This document shows positions 5,009-53,527 of a stretch of 64,000 nt of DNA, piece after piece (the first letter of the stretch is position 1; each line of letters starts with the position of its first letter). The stretch is taken from the NCBI RefSeq assembly GCF_003334815.1, contig NZ_QOWO01000006.1; one strand, 5' to 3'. The notes under the pieces are model-generated. The model saw only the letters and a list, made by a program, of their open reading frames with translations. It was not told the DNA's origin and ran no database searches. The stretch comes from Escherichia coli. Its GTDB lineage: Bacteria > Pseudomonadota > Gammaproteobacteria > Enterobacterales > Enterobacteriaceae. The position numbers and the translations under genes were made by a program.

Positions 5009-5090
5009 TGGCCTGATAAGACGCGTGAGCGTCGCATCAGGCATCGTTCACCATTGCCGGATGCGGCGTTAACGCCTTATCCGGCCTACG
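5009..5090. repeat. BIME: two REP elements in inverted orientation between the convergent genes ypfH and ypfN
   Basis: GCCTGATAAGACGCGTGAGCGTCGCATCAGGC and GCCGGATGCGGCGTTAACGCCTTATCCGGCCTAC. Confidence 0.85.
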
Positions 5091-29744: not shown

Positions 29745-29930
<186 letters not shown>

Positions 29931-46652: not shown

Positions 46653-47444
46653 ATGGGTAAACTCACGGGCAAGACAGCACTGATTACGGGCGCATTGCAG
46701 GGAATTGGCGAAGGAATTGCCAGAACTTTTGCACGTCATGGCGCGAACCTAATCTTGCTGGATATCTCCCCTGAGATCGAAAAGCTGGCGGACGAACTGT
46801 GTGGTCGTGGTCATCGCTGTACGGCGGTTGTCGCCGATGTGCGTGACCCGGCGTCGGTAGCCGCAGCTATCAAACGCGCGAAGGAAAAAGAAGGGCGCAT
46901 TGATATCCTGGTGAATAACGCAGGCGTTTGTCGTCTGGGCAGTTTCCTCGATATGAGCGATGACGATCGCGATTTCCATATTGACATCAATATTAAAGGC
47001 GTATGGAACGTCACGAAGGCGGTGCTGCCGGAGATGATTGCCCGCAAAGATGGTCGCATTGTGATGATGTCTTCAGTCACTGGTGATATGGTGGCCGATC
47101 CTGGCGAAACGGCGTACGCCTTAACGAAAGCGGCGATTGTTGGCCTGACAAAATCGCTGGCGGTGGAGTACGCGCAGTCTGGTATTCGCGTTAACGCCAT
47201 TTGCCCGGGATACGTGCGCACACCAATGGCGGAAAGCATTGCCCGCCAGTCGAACCCGGAAGATCCAGAGTCGGTGCTGACTGAAATGGCGAAAGCAATC
47301 CCGATGCGTCGCCTCGCCGATCCGCTGGAAGTCGGCGAACTGGCGGCCTTCCTCGCATCGGATGAATCCAGCTATTTAACCGGTACACAGAATGTGATTG
47401 ATGGCGGCAGCACACTGCCGGAGACGGTTAGCGTCGGTATCTGA
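46653..47444 (+). CDS. ucpA: Short-chain dehydrogenase/reductase UcpA
   Basis: ORF track 46587..47444; start trimmed to MGKLTGKTALITGALQGIG... (263 aa); TGxxxGxG Rossmann motif. Confidence 0.9.
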   Translation: MGKLTGKTALITGALQGIGEGIARTFARHGANLILLDISPEIEKLADELCGRGHRCTAVVADVRDPASVAAAIKRAKEKEGRIDILVNNAGVCRLGSFLDMSDDDRDFHIDINIKGVWNVTKAVLPEMIARKDGRIVMMSSVTGDMVADPGETAYALTKAAIVGLTKSLAVEYAQSGIRVNAICPGYVRTPMAESIARQSNPEDPESVLTEMAKAIPMRRLADPLEVGELAAFLASDESSYLTGTQNVIDGGSTLPETVSVGI

Positions 47445-47747
47445 TTCACCTCTGTTTCCTCCCTGCATTTGTGGGGAGGATTTCGTCTTGAACTAAGTTC
47501 ACCAGGCTATTTTATTTGTCATTTTGGCCCCGGGCAGTGCTCGAAATCCTCACGTACTATGTGTACGCTCCGGTTTCTCCGCGCTGTTCGTGTCCAAACT
47601 GACTGCAACAATTACGCCTGTTGAACCAAGTTCTTATTCCCTTTTCAACTTCCAAATCACCAAACGGTATATAAAACCGTTACTCCTTTCACGTCCGTTA
47701 TAAATATGATGGCTATTAGAAAGTCATTAAATTTATAAGGGTGCGCA

Positions 47748-48764
47748 ATGGCCGTTAACTTACTGAAAAAGAACTCACTCGCGCTGGTCGCTTCTCTGCT
47801 GCTGGCGGGCCATGTACAGGCAACGGAACTGCTGAACAGTTCTTATGACGTCTCCCGCGAGCTGTTTGCCGCCCTGAATCCGCCGTTTGAGCAACAATGG
47901 GCAAAAGATAACGGCGGCGACAAACTGACGATAAAACAATCTCATGCCGGGTCATCAAAACAGGCGCTGGCGATTTTACAGGGCTTAAAAGCCGACGTTG
48001 TCACTTATAACCAGGTGACCGACGTACAAATCCTGCACGATAAAGGCAAGCTGATCCCGGCCGACTGGCAGTCGCGCCTGCCGAATAATAGCTCGCCGTT
48101 CTACTCCACCATGGGCTTCCTGGTGCGTAAGGGTAACCCGAAGAATATCCACGATTGGAACGACCTGGTGCGCTCCGACGTGAAGCTGATTTTCCCGAAC
48201 CCGAAAACGTCGGGTAACGCGCGTTATACCTATCTGGCGGCATGGGGCGCAGCGGATAAAGCTGACGGTGGTGACAAAGGCAAAACCGAACAGTTTATGA
48301 CCCAGTTCCTGAAAAACGTTGAAGTGTTCGATACTGGCGGTCGTGGCGCGACCACCACTTTTGCCGAGCGCGGCCTGGGCGATGTGCTGATTAGCTTCGA
48401 ATCGGAAGTGAACAACATCCGTAAACAGTATGAAGCGCAGGGCTTTGAAGTGGTGATTCCGAAAACCAACATTCTGGCGGAATTCCCGGTGGCGTGGGTT
48501 GATAAAAACGTGCAGGCCAACGGTACGGAAAAAGCCGCCAAAGCCTATCTGAACTGGCTCTATAGCCCGCAGGCGCAAACCATCATCACCGACTATTACT
48601 ACCGCGTGAATAACCCGGAGGTGATGGACAAACTGAAAGACAAATTCCCGCAGACCGAGCTGTTCCGCGTGGAAGACAAATTTGGCTCCTGGCCGGAAGT
48701 GATGAAAACCCACTTCACCAGCGGCGGCGAGTTAGACAAGCTGTTAGCGGCGGGGCGTAACTGA
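47748..48764 (+). CDS. cysP: Thiosulfate/sulfate periplasmic binding protein
   Basis: 338-aa ORF with signal peptide. Confidence 0.95.
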
Positions 48765-49597
48765 TGTTTGCTGTCTCCTCCAGACGCGTGCTGCCGGGCT
48801 TTACCTTAAGCCTCGGCACCAGTCTGCTGTTTGTGTGCCTGATTTTGCTGCTGCCGCTCTCCGCGCTGGTGATGCAACTGGCCCAGATGAGCTGGGCGCA
48901 GTACTGGGAGGTGATCACCAACCCGCAGGTGGTCGCGGCCTACAAAGTAACGCTGCTGTCGGCGTTTGTGGCATCGATTTTTAACGGCGTTTTCGGTCTG
49001 CTGATGGCGTGGATCCTAACCCGCTATCGCTTCCCAGGCCGCACGCTGCTTGATGCGCTGATGGATTTACCCTTTGCGCTGCCAACGGCTGTCGCCGGTT
49101 TAACGCTGGCCTCGCTCTTTTCCGTAAACGGTTTTTACGGTGAATGGCTGGCGAAGTTTGATATCAAAGTCACCTATACATGGCTGGGGATTGCGGTGGC
49201 TATGGCCTTTACCAGCATTCCGTTTGTGGTGCGTACCGTGCAGCCGGTGCTGGAAGAGTTAGGCCCGGAATATGAAGAAGCGGCGGAAACGCTTGGTGCA
49301 ACGCGCTGGCAGAGTTTCTGCAAAGTGGTGCTGCCGGAGCTTTCTCCGGCGCTGGTGGCGGGCGTGGCGCTGTCGTTTACCCGTAGTCTTGGTGAATTTG
49401 GCGCGGTGATTTTTATCGCCGGAAATATCGCGTGGAAGACGGAAGTGACGTCGCTGATGATTTTTGTGCGCTTACAGGAGTTTGATTACCCGGCAGCGAG
49501 CGCGATTGCTTCGGTGATCCTCGCGGCATCTCTGCTGCTGCTGTTCTCAATTAACACTCTGCAAAGTCGCTTTGGTCGGCGTGTGGTAGGTCATTAA
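48764..49597 (+). CDS. cysU: Sulfate/thiosulfate ABC transporter permease
   Basis: 277-aa ORF; 1-nt overlap with cysP. Confidence 0.95.
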   Translation: MFAVSSRRVLPGFTLSLGTSLLFVCLILLLPLSALVMQLAQMSWAQYWEVITNPQVVAAYKVTLLSAFVASIFNGVFGLLMAWILTRYRFPGRTLLDALMDLPFALPTAVAGLTLASLFSVNGFYGEWLAKFDIKVTYTWLGIAVAMAFTSIPFVVRTVQPVLEELGPEYEEAAETLGATRWQSFCKVVLPELSPALVAGVALSFTRSLGEFGAVIFIAGNIAWKTEVTSLMIFVRLQEFDYPAASAIASVILAASLLLLFSINTLQSRFGRRVVGH

Positions 49598-50472
49598 TGG
49601 CGGAAGTTACCCAATTGAAGCGTTATGACGCGCGCCCGATTAACTGGGGCAAATGGTTTCTGATTGGCATCGGGATGCTGGTTTCGGCGTTCATCCTGCT
49701 GGTGCCGATGATTTACATCTTCGTGCAGGCATTCAGCAAGGGGCTGATGCCGGTTTTACAGAATCTGGCCGATCCGGACATGCTGCACGCCATCTGGCTG
49801 ACGGTGATGATCGCGCTGATTGCCGTACCGGTAAACCTGGTGTTCGGCATTCTGCTGGCCTGGCTGGTGACGCGCTTTAACTTCCCTGGACGCCAGTTAC
49901 TGCTGACGCTACTGGACATTCCGTTTGCCGTATCGCCGGTGGTTGCCGGTCTGGTGTATTTGCTGTTCTACGGCTCTAACGGCCCGCTCGGCGGTTGGCT
50001 CGACGAGCATAACCTGCAAATTATGTTCTCCTGGCCGGGAATGGTGCTGGTCACCATCTTCGTGACGTGTCCGTTTGTGGTGCGCGAACTGGTGCCGGTG
50101 ATGTTAAGCCAAGGCAGCCAGGAAGACGAAGCGGCGATTTTGCTTGGCGCGTCCGGCTGGCAGATGTTCCGTCGCGTCACATTACCGAACATCCGCTGGG
50201 CGCTGCTTTATGGCGTGGTGTTGACCAACGCCCGCGCAATTGGCGAGTTTGGCGCGGTGTCGGTGGTTTCCGGCTCGATTCGCGGCGAAACCCTGTCGCT
50301 GCCGTTACAGATTGAATTGCTGGAGCAGGACTACAACACCGTCGGCTCCTTTACCGCTGCGGCGCTGTTAACGCTGATGGCGATTATCACCCTGTTTTTA
50401 AAAAGTATGTTGCAGTGGCGCCTGGAGAATCAGGAAAAACGCGCACAGCAGGAGGAACATCATGAGCATTGA
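49597..50472 (+). CDS. cysW: Sulfate/thiosulfate ABC transporter permease
   Basis: 291-aa ORF; 1-nt overlap with cysU. Confidence 0.95.
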
Positions 50473-51559
50473 GATTGCCAATATTAAGAAGTCGTTTGGT
50501 CGCACCCAGGTGCTGAACGATATCTCACTGGATATTCCTTCAGGTCAGATGGTCGCGTTGCTGGGGCCGTCCGGTTCCGGGAAAACCACGCTGCTGCGCA
50601 TTATCGCCGGGCTGGAGCATCAAACCAGCGGGCATATTCGCTTCCACGGCACCGACGTGAGCCGCCTGCACGCACGTGATCGTAAAGTCGGTTTCGTGTT
50701 CCAGCATTACGCGCTGTTCCGCCATATGACGGTGTTCGACAATATCGCTTTTGGCCTGACGGTGCTGCCGCGTCGCGAGCGCCCGAATGCCGCAGCCATC
50801 AAAGCGAAAGTGACAAAATTGCTGGAAATGGTCCAGCTTGCCCATCTGGCGGATCGTTATCCGGCGCAGCTTTCCGGCGGCCAGAAACAGCGCGTGGCGC
50901 TGGCGCGCGCGCTGGCTGTGGAACCGCAAATTCTGCTGCTTGATGAACCGTTTGGCGCGCTGGATGCGCAGGTGCGTAAAGAGCTGCGTCGCTGGCTGCG
51001 TCAACTCCATGAAGAACTAAAATTCACCAGCGTTTTTGTGACCCACGATCAGGAAGAAGCGACCGAAGTAGCTGATCGTGTAGTTGTGATGAGCCAGGGC
51101 AATATTGAACAGGCTGACGCGCCGGATCAGGTATGGCGCGAACCGGCGACCCGTTTTGTGCTCGAATTTATGGGCGAAGTGAACCGCCTGCAGGGAACCA
51201 TTCGCGGCGGGCAGTTCCATGTTGGCGCGCATCGCTGGCCGCTGGGCTACACACCTGCGTATCAGGGGCCGGTGGATCTCTTCCTGCGCCCTTGGGAAGT
51301 GGATATCAGCCGCCGTACCAGCCTCGATTCGCCGCTGCCGGTACAGGTACTGGAAGCCAGCCCGAAAGGTCACTACACCCAATTAGTGGTGCAGCCGCTG
51401 GGGTGGTACAACGAACCGCTGACGGTCGTGATGCATGGCGACGATGCCCCGCAGCGTGGCGAGCGTTTATTCGTTGGTCTGCAACATGCGCGGCTGTATA
51501 ACGGCGACGAGCGTATCGAAACCCGCGATGAGGAACTTGCTCTCGCACAAAGCGCCTGA
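50462..51559 (+). CDS. cysA: Sulfate/thiosulfate ABC transporter ATP-binding protein
   Basis: 365-aa ORF; Walker [10 protein letters not shown] and LSGGQ signature; 11-nt overlap with cysW. Confidence 0.95.
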
Positions 51560-51580
51560 TAGGTTGAGTGAATGTTAAAC

Positions 51581-51613
51581 GCCCGGAGGCGCTTCCCGCG
51601 ATCCGGGCTTTTT
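51581..51613 (+). terminator. Terminator-like hairpin with T-tract between cysA and cysM
   Basis: GCCCGGA...TCCGGGC followed by TTTTT. Confidence 0.5.
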
Positions 51614-51633
51614 AATGGCAAGGTTTGTAACCT

Positions 51634-51669
51634 GTAGACCTGATAAGACGCGCAAGCGTCGCATCAGGC
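51634..51669. repeat. Single REP element between cysA and cysM
   Basis: GTAGACCTGATAAGACGCGCAAGCGTCGCATCAGGC. Confidence 0.8.
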
Positions 51670-51692
51670 AACACCACGTATGGATAGAGATC

Positions 51693-52604
51693 GTGAGTAC
51701 ATTAGAACAAACAATAGGCAATACGCCTCTGGTGAAGTTGCAGCGAATGGGGCCGGATAACGGCAGTGAAGTGTGGTTAAAACTGGAAGGCAATAACCCG
51801 GCAGGTTCGGTGAAAGATCGTGCGGCACTTTCGATGATCGTCGAGGCGGAAAAGCGCGGGGAAATTAAACCGGGTGATGTCTTAATCGAAGCCACCAGTG
51901 GTAACACCGGCATTGCGCTGGCAATGATTGCCGCGCTGAAAGGCTATCGCATGAAATTGCTGATGCCCGACAACATGAGCCAGGAACGCCGTGCGGCGAT
52001 GCGTGCTTATGGTGCGGAACTGATTCTTGTCACCAAAGAGCAGGGCATGGAAGGTGCGCGCGATCTGGCGCTGGAGATGGCGAATCGTGGCGAAGGAAAG
52101 CTGCTCGATCAGTTCAATAATCCCGATAACCCTTATGCGCATTACACCACCACTGGGCCGGAAATCTGGCAGCAAACCGGCGGGCGCATCACTCATTTTG
52201 TCTCCAGCATGGGGACGACCGGCACTATCACCGGCGTCTCACGCTTTATGCGCGAACAATCCAAACCGGTGACCATTGTCGGCCTGCAACCGGAAGAGGG
52301 CAGCAGCATTCCCGGCATTCGCCGCTGGCCTACGGAATATCTGCCGGGGATTTTCAACGCTTCTATGGTGGATGAGGTGCTGGATATTCATCAGCGCGAT
52401 GCGGAAAACACCATGCGCGAACTGGCGGTGCGGGAAGGAATATTCTGTGGCGTCAGCTCCGGCGGCGCGGTTGCCGGAGCACTGCGGGTGGCAAAAGCTA
52501 ACCCTGACGCGGTGGTGGTGGCGATCATCTGCGATCGTGGCGATCGCTACCTTTCTACCGGGGTGTTTGGGGAAGAGCATTTTAGCCAGGGGGCGGGGAT
52601 TTAA
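51693..52604 (+). CDS. cysM: Cysteine synthase B (O-acetylserine sulfhydrylase B)
   Basis: ORF track 51615..52604 begins inside the REP; trimmed to the GTG at 51693 giving (M)STLEQTIGNTPLVKL..., 303 aa. Confidence 0.9.
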   Translation: MSTLEQTIGNTPLVKLQRMGPDNGSEVWLKLEGNNPAGSVKDRAALSMIVEAEKRGEIKPGDVLIEATSGNTGIALAMIAALKGYRMKLLMPDNMSQERRAAMRAYGAELILVTKEQGMEGARDLALEMANRGEGKLLDQFNNPDNPYAHYTTTGPEIWQQTGGRITHFVSSMGTTGTITGVSRFMREQSKPVTIVGLQPEEGSSIPGIRRWPTEYLPGIFNASMVDEVLDIHQRDAENTMRELAVREGIFCGVSSGGAVAGALRVAKANPDAVVVAIICDRGDRYLSTGVFGEEHFSQGAGI

Positions 52605-52643
52605 GGATTAATAGCATCGGAGACTGATGACAAACGCAAAACT

Positions 52644-52741
<98 letters not shown>

Positions 52742-52792
52742 ATAAACAAAGCGCACTTTTTTAACAGTTGTTGCTGCCGACAAATGCAGTAT

Positions 52793-53527
52793 TTAATTTT
52801 CGTGAGGAAACGCCGTAAGGTCATCAATCATTTTTTGAAGTATTGGTGAGTCCTGACCGTCACCCCATTGAAGAATTTTTGCGGTAAGCTGATGACGCGC
52901 TAGTGCATTGAGTCCCATCTTTTTAAGTTTATGGGAGATTTTACCCATGACTTTAATCTGACCGAATGCAGTTGCGTAGGTAATCATATTGCTCTGGATA
53001 GTGCTCATTTCATCGACTAGTAATTGCGCACGAACATCCTCTTCAAGAATACTGTCCATAGCGATGTATTTCATACCCCACATAGTTTCAATTAACATTT
53101 GAGGGAAATCAGCACAGTCCAGATCCGGCTCTTTACGGAGGCTATTTTCAAGAACGTTTAGAGCATCAGCACCTTCATCGCTGCCAAAAGGAGATTCTTC
53201 ATCCCAGCAACACATATAAAGTGGATCAGTAAAATGGCACTGGAAGTTTGGGTGTGACGTTTTAACATGTAACCCAATTTCTTCATCATCAAAATAGTAG
53301 CGATCCATGAAGTTAAACTTTGGATCTTCTTGATAGCCTTTCTTCATTTTTGCGGCAATCAATTTACTGGCTTCTTTCAGACACTGTTCTTCATTATCGA
53401 ACTCTTTTGTCTGGAATTTACCAATACTACCTACCTTGCCATAGTTGACAGCTAAACTATCCCCTTCGTAATCTATCCACCAAAATTTATTCGATTTTTC
53501 ATCGTGATAAATAAAGCGTTTTTTCAT
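52793..53527 (-). CDS. yfeS: WGR-domain protein of unknown function YfeS
   Basis: 244-aa ORF; N-terminal ~75 aa resemble a WGR domain (NKFWWIDYEG...VNYGKVGSIGKFQTKEF...KMKKGY). Confidence 0.85.
   Translation of the reverse strand: MKKRFIYHDEKSNKFWWIDYEGDSLAVNYGKVGSIGKFQTKEFDNEEQCLKEASKLIAAKMKKGYQEDPKFNFMDRYYFDDEEIGLHVKTSHPNFQCHFTDPLYMCCWDEESPFGSDEGADALNVLENSLRKEPDLDCADFPQMLIETMWGMKYIAMDSILEEDVRAQLLVDEMSTIQSNMITYATAFGQIKVMGKISHKLKKMGLNALARHQLTAKILQWGDGQDSPILQKMIDDLTAFPHEN

What the first reader, a model, noticed from the sequence alone, without database searches (positions are those of the whole stretch)
51581..51695. Terminator-like hairpin plus REP inside the cysPUWAM operon, and a GTG start for cysM
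The cysP to cysA genes are tightly coupled (1-nt and 11-nt overlaps), but cysA and cysM are separated by 133 bp holding a GC-rich hairpin with a T5 run and a single REP. cysM itself appears to start at a GTG (51693). Together these suggest cysM is expressed at a lower or separately set level than the transporter genes.
Basis: partly seen in the sequence, partly recalled or inferred. Interest (0 to 1): 0.25.

Follow-up and report, generated by a model that had tools for sequence, protein, structure and literature searches.

The report
Leaky terminator before GTG-started cysM
The gap between cysA and cysM in this E. coli window holds a real terminator hairpin, one REP repeat and a GTG start for cysM, an ordinary and largely documented way of giving the last gene of an operon its own, probably lower, expression level.

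Summary
The window is E. coli cysPUWAM. The genes overlap by 1, 1 and 11 nt. A 133-nt cysA-cysM spacer follows. It holds a 7-bp GC-rich hairpin (51581-51608, -17.7 kcal/mol) with a T5 run (51609-51613). It also holds one Z2-type REP (51634-51670) and a GTG at 51693, which is the RefSeq start of cysM.

- **Terminator.** A published SEnd-seq-based table ends a cysP-cysU-cysW-cysA transcription unit at MG1655 2539662. That is window 51614, one base after the T5 run. A hairpin plus T-run occurs in 51 of 58 orthologous Enterobacterales spacers, against 5% of shuffles, with about ten visibly different stem sequences.
- **Start codon.** The orthologous start is GTG in 65 and TTG in 3 of 68 loci, never ATG. 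The longer ORF from ATG 51615 is frame-shifted in other E. coli lineages.
- **REP.** Among the relatives sampled it sits at this position only in E. coli, E. albertii and one near-identical Pseudocitrobacter record. It separates the terminator from the cysM ribosome-binding site, which lie 17-19 nt apart in other Enterobacteriaceae.

Best reading: a partial intra-operon terminator plus a weak start set cysM apart from the transporter genes, and the REP is accessory. The read-through fraction was not measured. This is ordinary and mostly already annotated.

The parts
47718..47718 (+). 5' boundary of the published cysPUWA transcription unit (cysP promoter start site)
   Evidence: MG1655 2543558 in Table S7 of PMC10667835, mapped with window = 2591276 - MG1655 coordinate. 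It lies 30 nt upstream of the cysP ATG.
47748..50472 (+). cysP, cysU (cysT) and cysW, joined by 1-nt stop/start overlaps
   Evidence: ORF list and RefSeq annotation of an identical strain.
50462..51559 (+). cysA, overlapping cysW by 11 nt; it ends TGA and is followed immediately by TAG
   Evidence: NCBIfam CysA equivalog NF008105 scores 755 bits against a cut-off of 502. TGATAG or TGATA after cysA is shared by most relatives.
51581..51608 (+). GC-rich stem-loop of the intra-operon terminator: a 7-bp outer stem, a 3-bp inner stem and a 5-nt loop
   Evidence: Folds at -17.7 kcal/mol, z = -2.8. Single-copy and present in all 5426 E. coli genomes. Orthologous to the Citrobacter hairpin.
51609..51614 (+). 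T5 run (U-tract) and the mapped transcript 3' end at 51614
   Evidence: Sequence. The published transcription-unit boundary is MG1655 2539662.
51615..51617 (+). In-frame upstream ATG, judged not to be used
   Evidence: No Shine-Dalgarno motif precedes it; it directly follows the T-run. The extension reads through the REP. It is out of frame in E. coli lineages that carry a 1-nt insertion and absent in other genera. Homology to solved CysM structures starts only at residue 28 of the long ORF.
51634..51670 (+). Single REP (Z2-type by recall): GTAG followed by an imperfect palindrome
   Evidence: Folds at -18.2 kcal/mol, 0 of 200 shuffles as good. Partial naRNA4 hit, second copy in the window, repeated in every genome. 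Absent from most relatives.
51682..51689 (+). Short Shine-Dalgarno-like motifs (GGA 51682-51684, GAG 51687-51689) before the cysM start
   Evidence: Sequence. Comparable 3-4 nt GGA, AGG or GAG motifs sit at the same distance in relatives. Their function is inferred, not tested.
51693..52604 (+). cysM (cysteine synthase B, 303 aa), starting at GTG
   Evidence: RefSeq start. TIGR01138 cysM equivalog scores 566 bits against a cut-off of 394. GTG in 65 and TTG in 3 of 68 orthologous loci.

Best explanation
The hairpin plus U-tract 22-55 nt after the cysA stop is an intrinsic (Rho-independent) terminator that sits inside the cysPUWAM gene cluster and works partially.

- Most transcripts from the cysP promoter end there, giving a cysPUWA mRNA.
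- A fraction reads through and carries cysM.
- cysM is then translated on its own, not coupled to cysA, from a GTG codon behind a short Shine-Dalgarno motif.

Together these would set CysM synthesis apart from, and probably below, the four translationally coupled transporter genes. The REP is a later insertion between the terminator and the cysM ribosome-binding site, found here in the Escherichia lineage. It is accessory: neutral, or a minor modifier of RNA stability or read-through.

Shown: the sequence anatomy, the mapped transcript end, the conservation and the start codon. Inferred: partial efficiency, a lower CysM level and the REP being dispensable.
For: 1. Anatomy of an intrinsic terminator: a GC-rich 7-bp stem, -17.7 kcal/mol, followed directly by U5. 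The stem starts 22 nt after the stop codon.
2. Table S7 of PMC10667835 uses transcription units from the SEnd-seq study it cites. It lists operon 310 as cysA, cysP, cysU, cysW at 2539662-2543558 (-), with one termination site. 2539662 is window 51614, the base after the U5 run.
3. Of 58 Enterobacterales loci with cysA directly upstream of cysM, 51 have a hairpin of -12 kcal/mol or better followed by a T-run, against 30 of 580 dinucleotide shuffles.
4. By eye there are about ten different stem sequences (GCCCGG.., GCGGCC.., GGGCGGG.., GGCAACCC.., TGCTCATCTC.. and others). So the structure and the T-run are kept while the sequence changes.
5. In Citrobacter, Enterobacter and allied genera the hairpin ends only 16-19 nt before the GTG. 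There is no room for a promoter after it, so cysM there must be transcribed through the hairpin. That implies leakiness.
6. No sigma-70-like promoter was found in 47300-53000.
7. The orthologous start is GTG in 65 and TTG in 3 of 68 loci, never ATG. In 41 of the 68 no alternative in-frame upstream start exists.
8. In an APEC lsrR mutant cysU, cysW and cysA rise 3.4-, 6.9- and 9.9-fold, while cysM is not among the changed genes.
Against: - A Term-seq study (PMC7815308) lists no 3' end between MG1655 2538600 and 2539799 in the supplementary text held. Expression of the operon may have been too low in those conditions, or the file may be incomplete.
- Papers generally treat cysPUWAM as a single operon (for example). 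That fits a leaky terminator but not a strong one.
- The U-tract has only five U, and the stem encloses a 14-nt apical region, so efficiency may be modest.
- The mapped 3' end could come from exonuclease trimming back to the hairpin rather than from termination.
- No cysA:cysM RNA or protein ratio was obtained.
- In the APEC table cysP is also missing, so absence from that list is weak evidence.
Confidence: 0.65

Rival explanations
1. The hairpin is mainly an RNA-stability element. Full-length cysPUWAM transcripts are cut in the spacer and 3'-to-5' exonucleases trim back to the hairpin (and the REP). This leaves a stable cysPUWA mRNA and a less stable cysM segment. On this reading the mapped 3' end is a processing product, not a termination site.
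For: The SEnd-seq-derived boundary cannot separate termination from processing. REPs and stable hairpins are established exonuclease barriers, as in the malE-malF case (from my own knowledge). The same paper maps RNase-dependent ends in cysM, at 2539319 and 2538651.
Against: An exonuclease barrier needs no U-tract, yet a T-run follows the hairpin in 51 of 58 lineages with visibly different stems. Table S7 records no RNase E, PNPase or RNase II site in operon 310, only one RNase R start. The REP is missing from most relatives.
Confidence: 0.15
2. The terminator is efficient and cysM is a separate transcription unit with its own promoter. That promoter would lie either in the E. coli spacer or inside the 3' part of cysA.
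For: cysM is not part of the polycistronic unit in Table S7. That table counts two log-phase start sites within operon 310. cysM is absent from the list of changed genes when cysUWA rise.
Against: No sigma-70-like promoter was found anywhere in 47300-53000. In most Enterobacteriaceae only 16-19 nt separate the hairpin from the GTG, so any promoter would lie upstream of the terminator and still need read-through. From my own recollection of the cysteine-regulon literature, cysM belongs to the CysB-controlled regulon, and no separate cysM promoter turned up in the papers I could search.
Confidence: 0.12
3. The hairpin, the REP and the GTG are incidental features with no effect on expression.
For: REPs insert in many permissive intergenic sites. 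About one E. coli gene in seven starts with GTG (from my own knowledge).
Against: The hairpin plus T-run is conserved across Enterobacterales against 5% of shuffles. GTG or TTG is found at all 68 orthologous starts. A transcript end maps at the T-run.
Confidence: 0.05

Closest known systems
Partial intra-operon terminators (attenuators), such as the one between rplL and rpoB in the rplKAJL-rpoBC cluster and T1 before dnaG in rpsU-dnaG-rpoD (from my own knowledge)
   Same: A hairpin plus U-tract between two cistrons of one gene cluster. It ends most transcripts and lets a fraction through, so the distal genes are made at a lower level from the same promoter.
   Different: Efficiency and read-through have not been measured for the cysA-cysM site. 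The distal gene here is a single enzyme with a conserved non-ATG start.
REP-dependent differential expression in the malEFG operon, where an intercistronic REP stabilises the upstream mRNA (from my own knowledge)
   Same: A REP lies in the spacer of an ABC-transporter operon, downstream of the more highly needed genes.
   Different: Here the REP is preceded by a separate single-copy terminator hairpin. It is lineage-specific and no stabilising effect has been shown.
REP-mediated translational down-regulation via ribosome stalling and tmRNA (Liang, Rudd and Deutscher 2015; from my own knowledge)
   Same: A REP lies downstream of a coding region.
   Different: As I recall it, that mechanism needs the REP within about 15 nt of the stop codon. 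Here the REP begins 75 nt after the cysA stop, so the condition is not met.
Conserved weak start codons that set low expression, such as GTG of lacI (from my own knowledge)
   Same: A non-ATG initiator kept over long evolutionary distance: 65 GTG and 3 TTG of 68 loci.
   Different: The quantitative effect on CysM has not been measured.

Membership tests
Intrinsic (Rho-independent) terminator | GC-rich stem-loop | tested here: met
   A 7-bp stem with 6 G-C pairs plus a 3-bp inner stem, -17.7 kcal/mol; 2 of 200 shuffles fold as well.
Intrinsic (Rho-independent) terminator | U-rich tract immediately 3' of the stem | tested here: met
   TTTTT at 51609-51613 directly after the stem, then AAT. A T-run follows the hairpin in 51 of 58 orthologous spacers.
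Intrinsic (Rho-independent) terminator | RNA 3' ends map in or just after the U-tract in vivo | tested here: met
   This is a look-up of published data, not a new experiment. The transcription-unit boundary 2539662 is window 51614. A second data set (Term-seq) lists no end here.
Intrinsic (Rho-independent) terminator | Termination by RNA polymerase alone in vitro, independent of Rho | not testable with these tools
   Needs in vitro transcription.
REP (repetitive extragenic palindrome) | GTAG tetranucleotide followed by an imperfect palindrome of about 30 nt | tested here: met
   GTAG at 51634-51637 and the palindrome at 51639-51668, -18.2 kcal/mol, 0 of 200 shuffles as good.
REP (repetitive extragenic palindrome) | Many dispersed extragenic copies per genome | tested here: met
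   The 351-bp query that contains it matches a median of 5 places per genome by megablast, 33507 places in all. The hairpin segment alone matches once per genome. There is a second copy at 5012-5041 and a partial naRNA4 hit.
REP (repetitive extragenic palindrome) | Recognition by a RAYT (TnpA-REP) transposase | not testable with these tools
   Biochemical property.
REP-dependent translational down-regulation (stop-codon-proximal REP) | REP within about 15 nt of the upstream stop codon | tested here: not met
   The REP starts at 51634 and the cysA stop ends at 51559, a distance of 75 nt.
CysM, cysteine synthase B (TIGR01138 / NF008735) | Score above the curated equivalog cut-off | tested here: met
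   566.4 bits against a cut-off of 394.2, and 560.7 against 413. The closest solved structure, 2bhs, matches over residues 2-303 with one substitution.
GTG-initiated protein | Start codon supported by conservation and by exclusion of upstream starts | tested here: met
   GTG in 65 and TTG in 3 of 68 loci. In 41 of the 68 there is no alternative in-frame upstream start. The ATG at 51615 is out of frame in other E. coli lineages.
GTG-initiated protein | N-terminal peptide of the native protein | not tested
   No N-terminal proteomics data were reached. The deposited structures begin MSTLEQ, but that follows the annotation.

The most novel reading that the evidence does not exclude
The conserved leaky terminator could be a regulated attenuator. 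Read-through into cysM would be tuned by a factor or condition, for example anaerobiosis or thiosulfate versus sulfate supply. The ratio of thiosulfate-using enzyme to transporter would then be adjustable rather than fixed. A second, smaller possibility is that the terminator is a domesticated REP. The E. coli hairpin is orthologous to a Citrobacter hairpin. That hairpin equals the Enterobacter REP-like unit with its CTACA end replaced by a T-run.
Probability: 0.08. Interest if true: 0.4.

Novelty: already known. Interest (0 to 1): 0.12.

Why it matters
It matters little beyond careful annotation. It shows that the textbook 'cysPUWAM operon' is better described as a cysPUWA unit plus read-through into cysM. 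That affects how cysM expression data and operon models are read, and how cysteine-production strains are engineered. The breadth of conservation of the hairpin plus T-run and of the GTG start is a tidy example of expression tuning kept while sequence turns over. The mechanism itself is standard.

Tried and rejected
- **Generic terminator and promoter scan.** It missed the hairpin because its loop limit is 8 nt, and it found no promoter.
- **Term-seq supplement of PMC7815308.** It lists no 3' end in the cysA-cysM region. I first searched with wrong remembered MG1655 coordinates and corrected them from the MG1655 annotation.
- **Papers not held or without held supplements.** These were Dar and Sorek 2018, Grünberger 2022 and Conway 2014 (no supplementary text held); Ju 2019 (SEnd-seq), Thomason 2015 (dRNA-seq), Sirko 1990, Li 2014, Schmidt 2016 and Lalanne 2018 (not held). 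As a result I found no direct cysA:cysM RNA or protein ratio and no start-site list.
- **Literature searches on cysA, cysM with 'terminator', 'intergenic' or 'read-through'.** No paper discusses this junction.
- **An 'unbiased' test.** It took the strongest hairpin per spacer and then counted T in its tail. It was uninformative because the best fold often absorbs the T-run by pairing it with an upstream A-run, or picks a REP pair instead.
- **Small hairpin pairing the GTG with upstream CACG (fourth fold).** It is not better than shuffles (z = -0.9) and was dropped.
- **Search for the Enterobacter-type REP motif in the fetched loci.** It hit only the spacer itself, so genome-wide repetition of that unit could not be shown with the DNA held.
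- **The longer ORF from ATG 51615.** Rejected as the real start.

Full report
**What is there.** The window around 47.7-52.6 kb is the E. coli cysP-cysU-cysW-cysA-cysM cluster on the + strand.
- The 351-bp junction segment is 100% identical to K-12-like strains and is found in all 5426 complete E. coli genomes.
They are cysP 47748-48764, cysU 48764-49597, cysW 49597-50472, cysA 50462-51559 and cysM 51693-52604.
- The overlaps are 1, 1 and 11 nt, and the cysA-cysM spacer is 133 nt.
- NCBIfam confirms CysA and CysM as equivalogs.
- Window and MG1655 coordinates are related by MG1655 = 2591276 - window.

**The hairpin.**
- GCCCGGA (51581-51587) pairs with TCCGGGC (51602-51608) around an inner 3-bp stem and a 5-nt loop.
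- It folds at -17.7 kcal/mol against -10.9 for shuffles; 2 of 200 shuffles fold as well.
- TTTTT follows at 51609-51613.
- The simple terminator scan missed it only because of its 8-nt loop limit.
- Unlike the REP, this segment is single-copy and present in every E. coli genome at 95% identity or more.
- E. albertii keeps the pairing through a G-C to G-U change that also lengthens the T-run.

**Published transcript mapping.**
- Table S7 of Liu et al. 2023 (PMC10667835) builds operons from the transcription units of the SEnd-seq study it cites.
- It lists operon 310 as 'cysA cysP cysU cysW', 2539662-2543558 on the minus strand, with one termination site.
- 2539662 is window 51614, the base right after the T5 run. 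2543558 is window 47718, 30 nt before the cysP ATG.
- So the mapped polycistronic RNA is cysPUWA, ending at this hairpin, and cysM is not in it.
- A Term-seq data set (PMC7815308) lists no 3' end in this region in the supplementary text held. That is neutral to mildly negative.
- An RNA-seq table from an APEC lsrR mutant shows cysU, cysW and cysA up 3.4-, 6.9- and 9.9-fold, with cysM absent from the list. cysP is absent too, so this is weak evidence.

**Comparative evidence.** A scan of one genome per species returned 80 loci encoding CysM relatives.
- In 58 of them cysA lies directly upstream with a spacer of 400 nt or less.
- A hairpin of -12 kcal/mol or better followed by a T-run is present in 51 of the 58 spacers. 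The same test is passed by 30 of 580 dinucleotide-preserving shuffles.
- By eye the stems fall into about ten different sequences. They are GCCCGG in Escherichia, Citrobacter and Enterobacter, GCGGCC in Cedecea, Siccibacter and Shimwellia, and GGGCGGG in Pantoea. They are GGCAACCC in Serratia and TGCTCATCTC in Photorhabdus, with others in Yersinia, Tatumella, Providencia and Proteus.
- Keeping both the structure and the T-run while the sequence turns over argues for a terminator rather than a mere exonuclease barrier.
- In Citrobacter, Enterobacter and allied genera the hairpin ends only 16-19 nt before the start codon. No promoter fits after it, so cysM must be transcribed through it. The terminator must therefore be leaky.
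- No sigma-70-like promoter was found in the E. coli region either.

**The start codon.**
- At the position orthologous to 51693 the codon is GTG in 65 loci and TTG in 3 of 68, and never ATG.
- In 41 of the 68 an in-frame stop precedes any alternative start.
- The upstream ATG at 51615 follows the T-run directly, has no Shine-Dalgarno motif, and would add 26 residues read through the REP.
- In other E. coli lineages (FDAARGOS_1300, SCPM-O-B-8794) a 1-nt insertion, GGTTTTG, puts that ATG out of frame.
- Solved CysM structures and the family profile align only from residue 2-3 of the 303-residue protein.
- The GTG start is therefore sound and is already the standard annotation.
- Only short GGA or GAG motifs precede it.

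**The REP.**
- GTAG (51634-51637) plus the palindrome at 51639-51668 is a canonical REP, which I recognise from memory as the Z2 type.
- It folds at -18.2 kcal/mol with 0 of 200 shuffles as good. It is repeated in the window and in every genome and partly matches the REP-derived Rfam family naRNA4.
- Among the relatives sampled it lies at this position only in E. coli, E. albertii and a near-identical Pseudocitrobacter faecalis record, which has two REPs.
- It accounts for the difference between the 66-71-nt spacers of single-hairpin relatives and the 133 nt here.
- It starts 75 nt after the cysA stop. As I recall that mechanism, this is too far for stop-proximal REP translation control.
- I regard it as accessory. 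No effect on cysM was shown.

**Origin of the hairpin.**
- The E. coli hairpin aligns with the Citrobacter hairpin over 34 nt; 0 of 500 shuffles score as well.
- Its left arm equals that of the first REP-like unit in Enterobacter spacers (1 of 500 shuffles). It also resembles the Y-type REP at 52706-52744 (3 of 500).
- In Enterobacter-type genomes the spacer holds two inverted REP-like units, and the second one plus a T-run serves as the terminator.
- The terminator may therefore be REP-derived. This is suggestive only. I could not show genome-wide repetition of that unit with the DNA held.

**Mechanism and rivals.**
- Best explanation (confidence about 0.65): a partial intrinsic terminator after cysA, together with uncoupled initiation at GTG behind a weak Shine-Dalgarno motif. 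These set cysM apart from, and probably below, the translationally coupled transporter genes.
- Rival 1, about 0.15: processing and stabilisation rather than termination. The conserved T-run counts against it.
- Rival 2, about 0.12: an efficient terminator with a separate cysM promoter. The 16-19-nt spacing in relatives and the lack of a promoter match count against it.
- Rival 3, about 0.05: no function.
- The read-through fraction and any cysA:cysM ratio were not obtained.

**Comparison with what is known, and verdict.** This is the standard logic of intra-operon attenuators such as rplL-rpoB, and of weak start codons. The REP-in-spacer arrangement recalls malE-malF. The GTG start, the REP class and the transcript end are all in existing annotation or published tables. 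Only the breadth of conservation is an incremental addition. The finding is real, correctly described and ordinary.

Noticed in passing
window 52645-52742: Between the convergent cysM and yfeS lie two inverted REPs, a BIME-like pair: GCCTGATGCGCTACGCTTATCAGGCCTACA and TGTAGGCCGGATAAGGCGTTTACGCCGCATCCGGCA. There is an Rfam ES036 hit at 52665-52707 (-) above gathering score and a naRNA4 partial hit. I saw no obvious hairpin plus T-run right after the cysM stop. A published RNase-related 3' end lies at MG1655 2538651, which is window 52625, 21 nt after the cysM stop.
   Followed up: partly
window 5010-5086 and 29797-29878: Full-length Rfam naRNA4 (REP325-type, nucleoid-associated RNA) matches above gathering score: 92.7 bits at 5010-5086 and 71.8 bits at 29797-29878. 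These are REP clusters elsewhere in the window. The copy at 5012-5041 is the closest relative in the window of the cysA-cysM REP.
   Followed up: no
L012, L016, L017, L018, L049 (about 2382-2500); L008, L009, L014 (about 2433-2500): Enterobacter-type spacers hold two inverted REP-like units, and the second plus a T-run acts as the terminator. Citrobacter has a single unit in which the CTACA end is replaced by a T-run. The E. coli hairpin is orthologous to that unit. This hints that the cysA-cysM terminator is a domesticated REP.
   Followed up: partly
window 51613-51632 versus 51679-51698: The segment just before the REP (TAATGGCAAGGTTTGTAACC) loosely resembles the ribosome-binding and start region just after it (TATGGATAGAGATCGTGAGT). 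Both resemble the single ATTGGA...CGTG region of relatives without the REP. This could be a relic duplication made when the REP inserted. The similarity is weak, about 11 of 19 positions by eye, and was not tested statistically.
   Followed up: no
window 51557-51562 and the orthologous position in L003-L077: cysA ends with tandem stops TGA TAG. TGATAG or TGATA is shared by most Enterobacterales loci examined.
   Followed up: no
window 52365-52367 (CysM residue 225): CysM in the window has Met where the deposited E. coli structure 2bhs has Leu (FNASMVDE against FNASLVDE). This is a single conservative difference.
   Followed up: no
L005 (Pseudocitrobacter faecalis DSM 27453), 1401-1573: This record has a cysA-cysM junction nearly identical to that of E. 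coli (CysM 97% identical, same hairpin), but with two REPs instead of one. That is surprisingly close for another genus. Horizontal transfer or a taxonomic or assembly issue are both possible.
   Followed up: no
Literature: Table S3 of PMC13393413: In the APEC lsrR mutant the fold-change rises along the operon (cysU 3.4, cysW 6.9, cysA 9.9), while the first gene cysP and the last gene cysM are both absent from the list. This is odd for a single transcript and is not explained.
   Followed up: no
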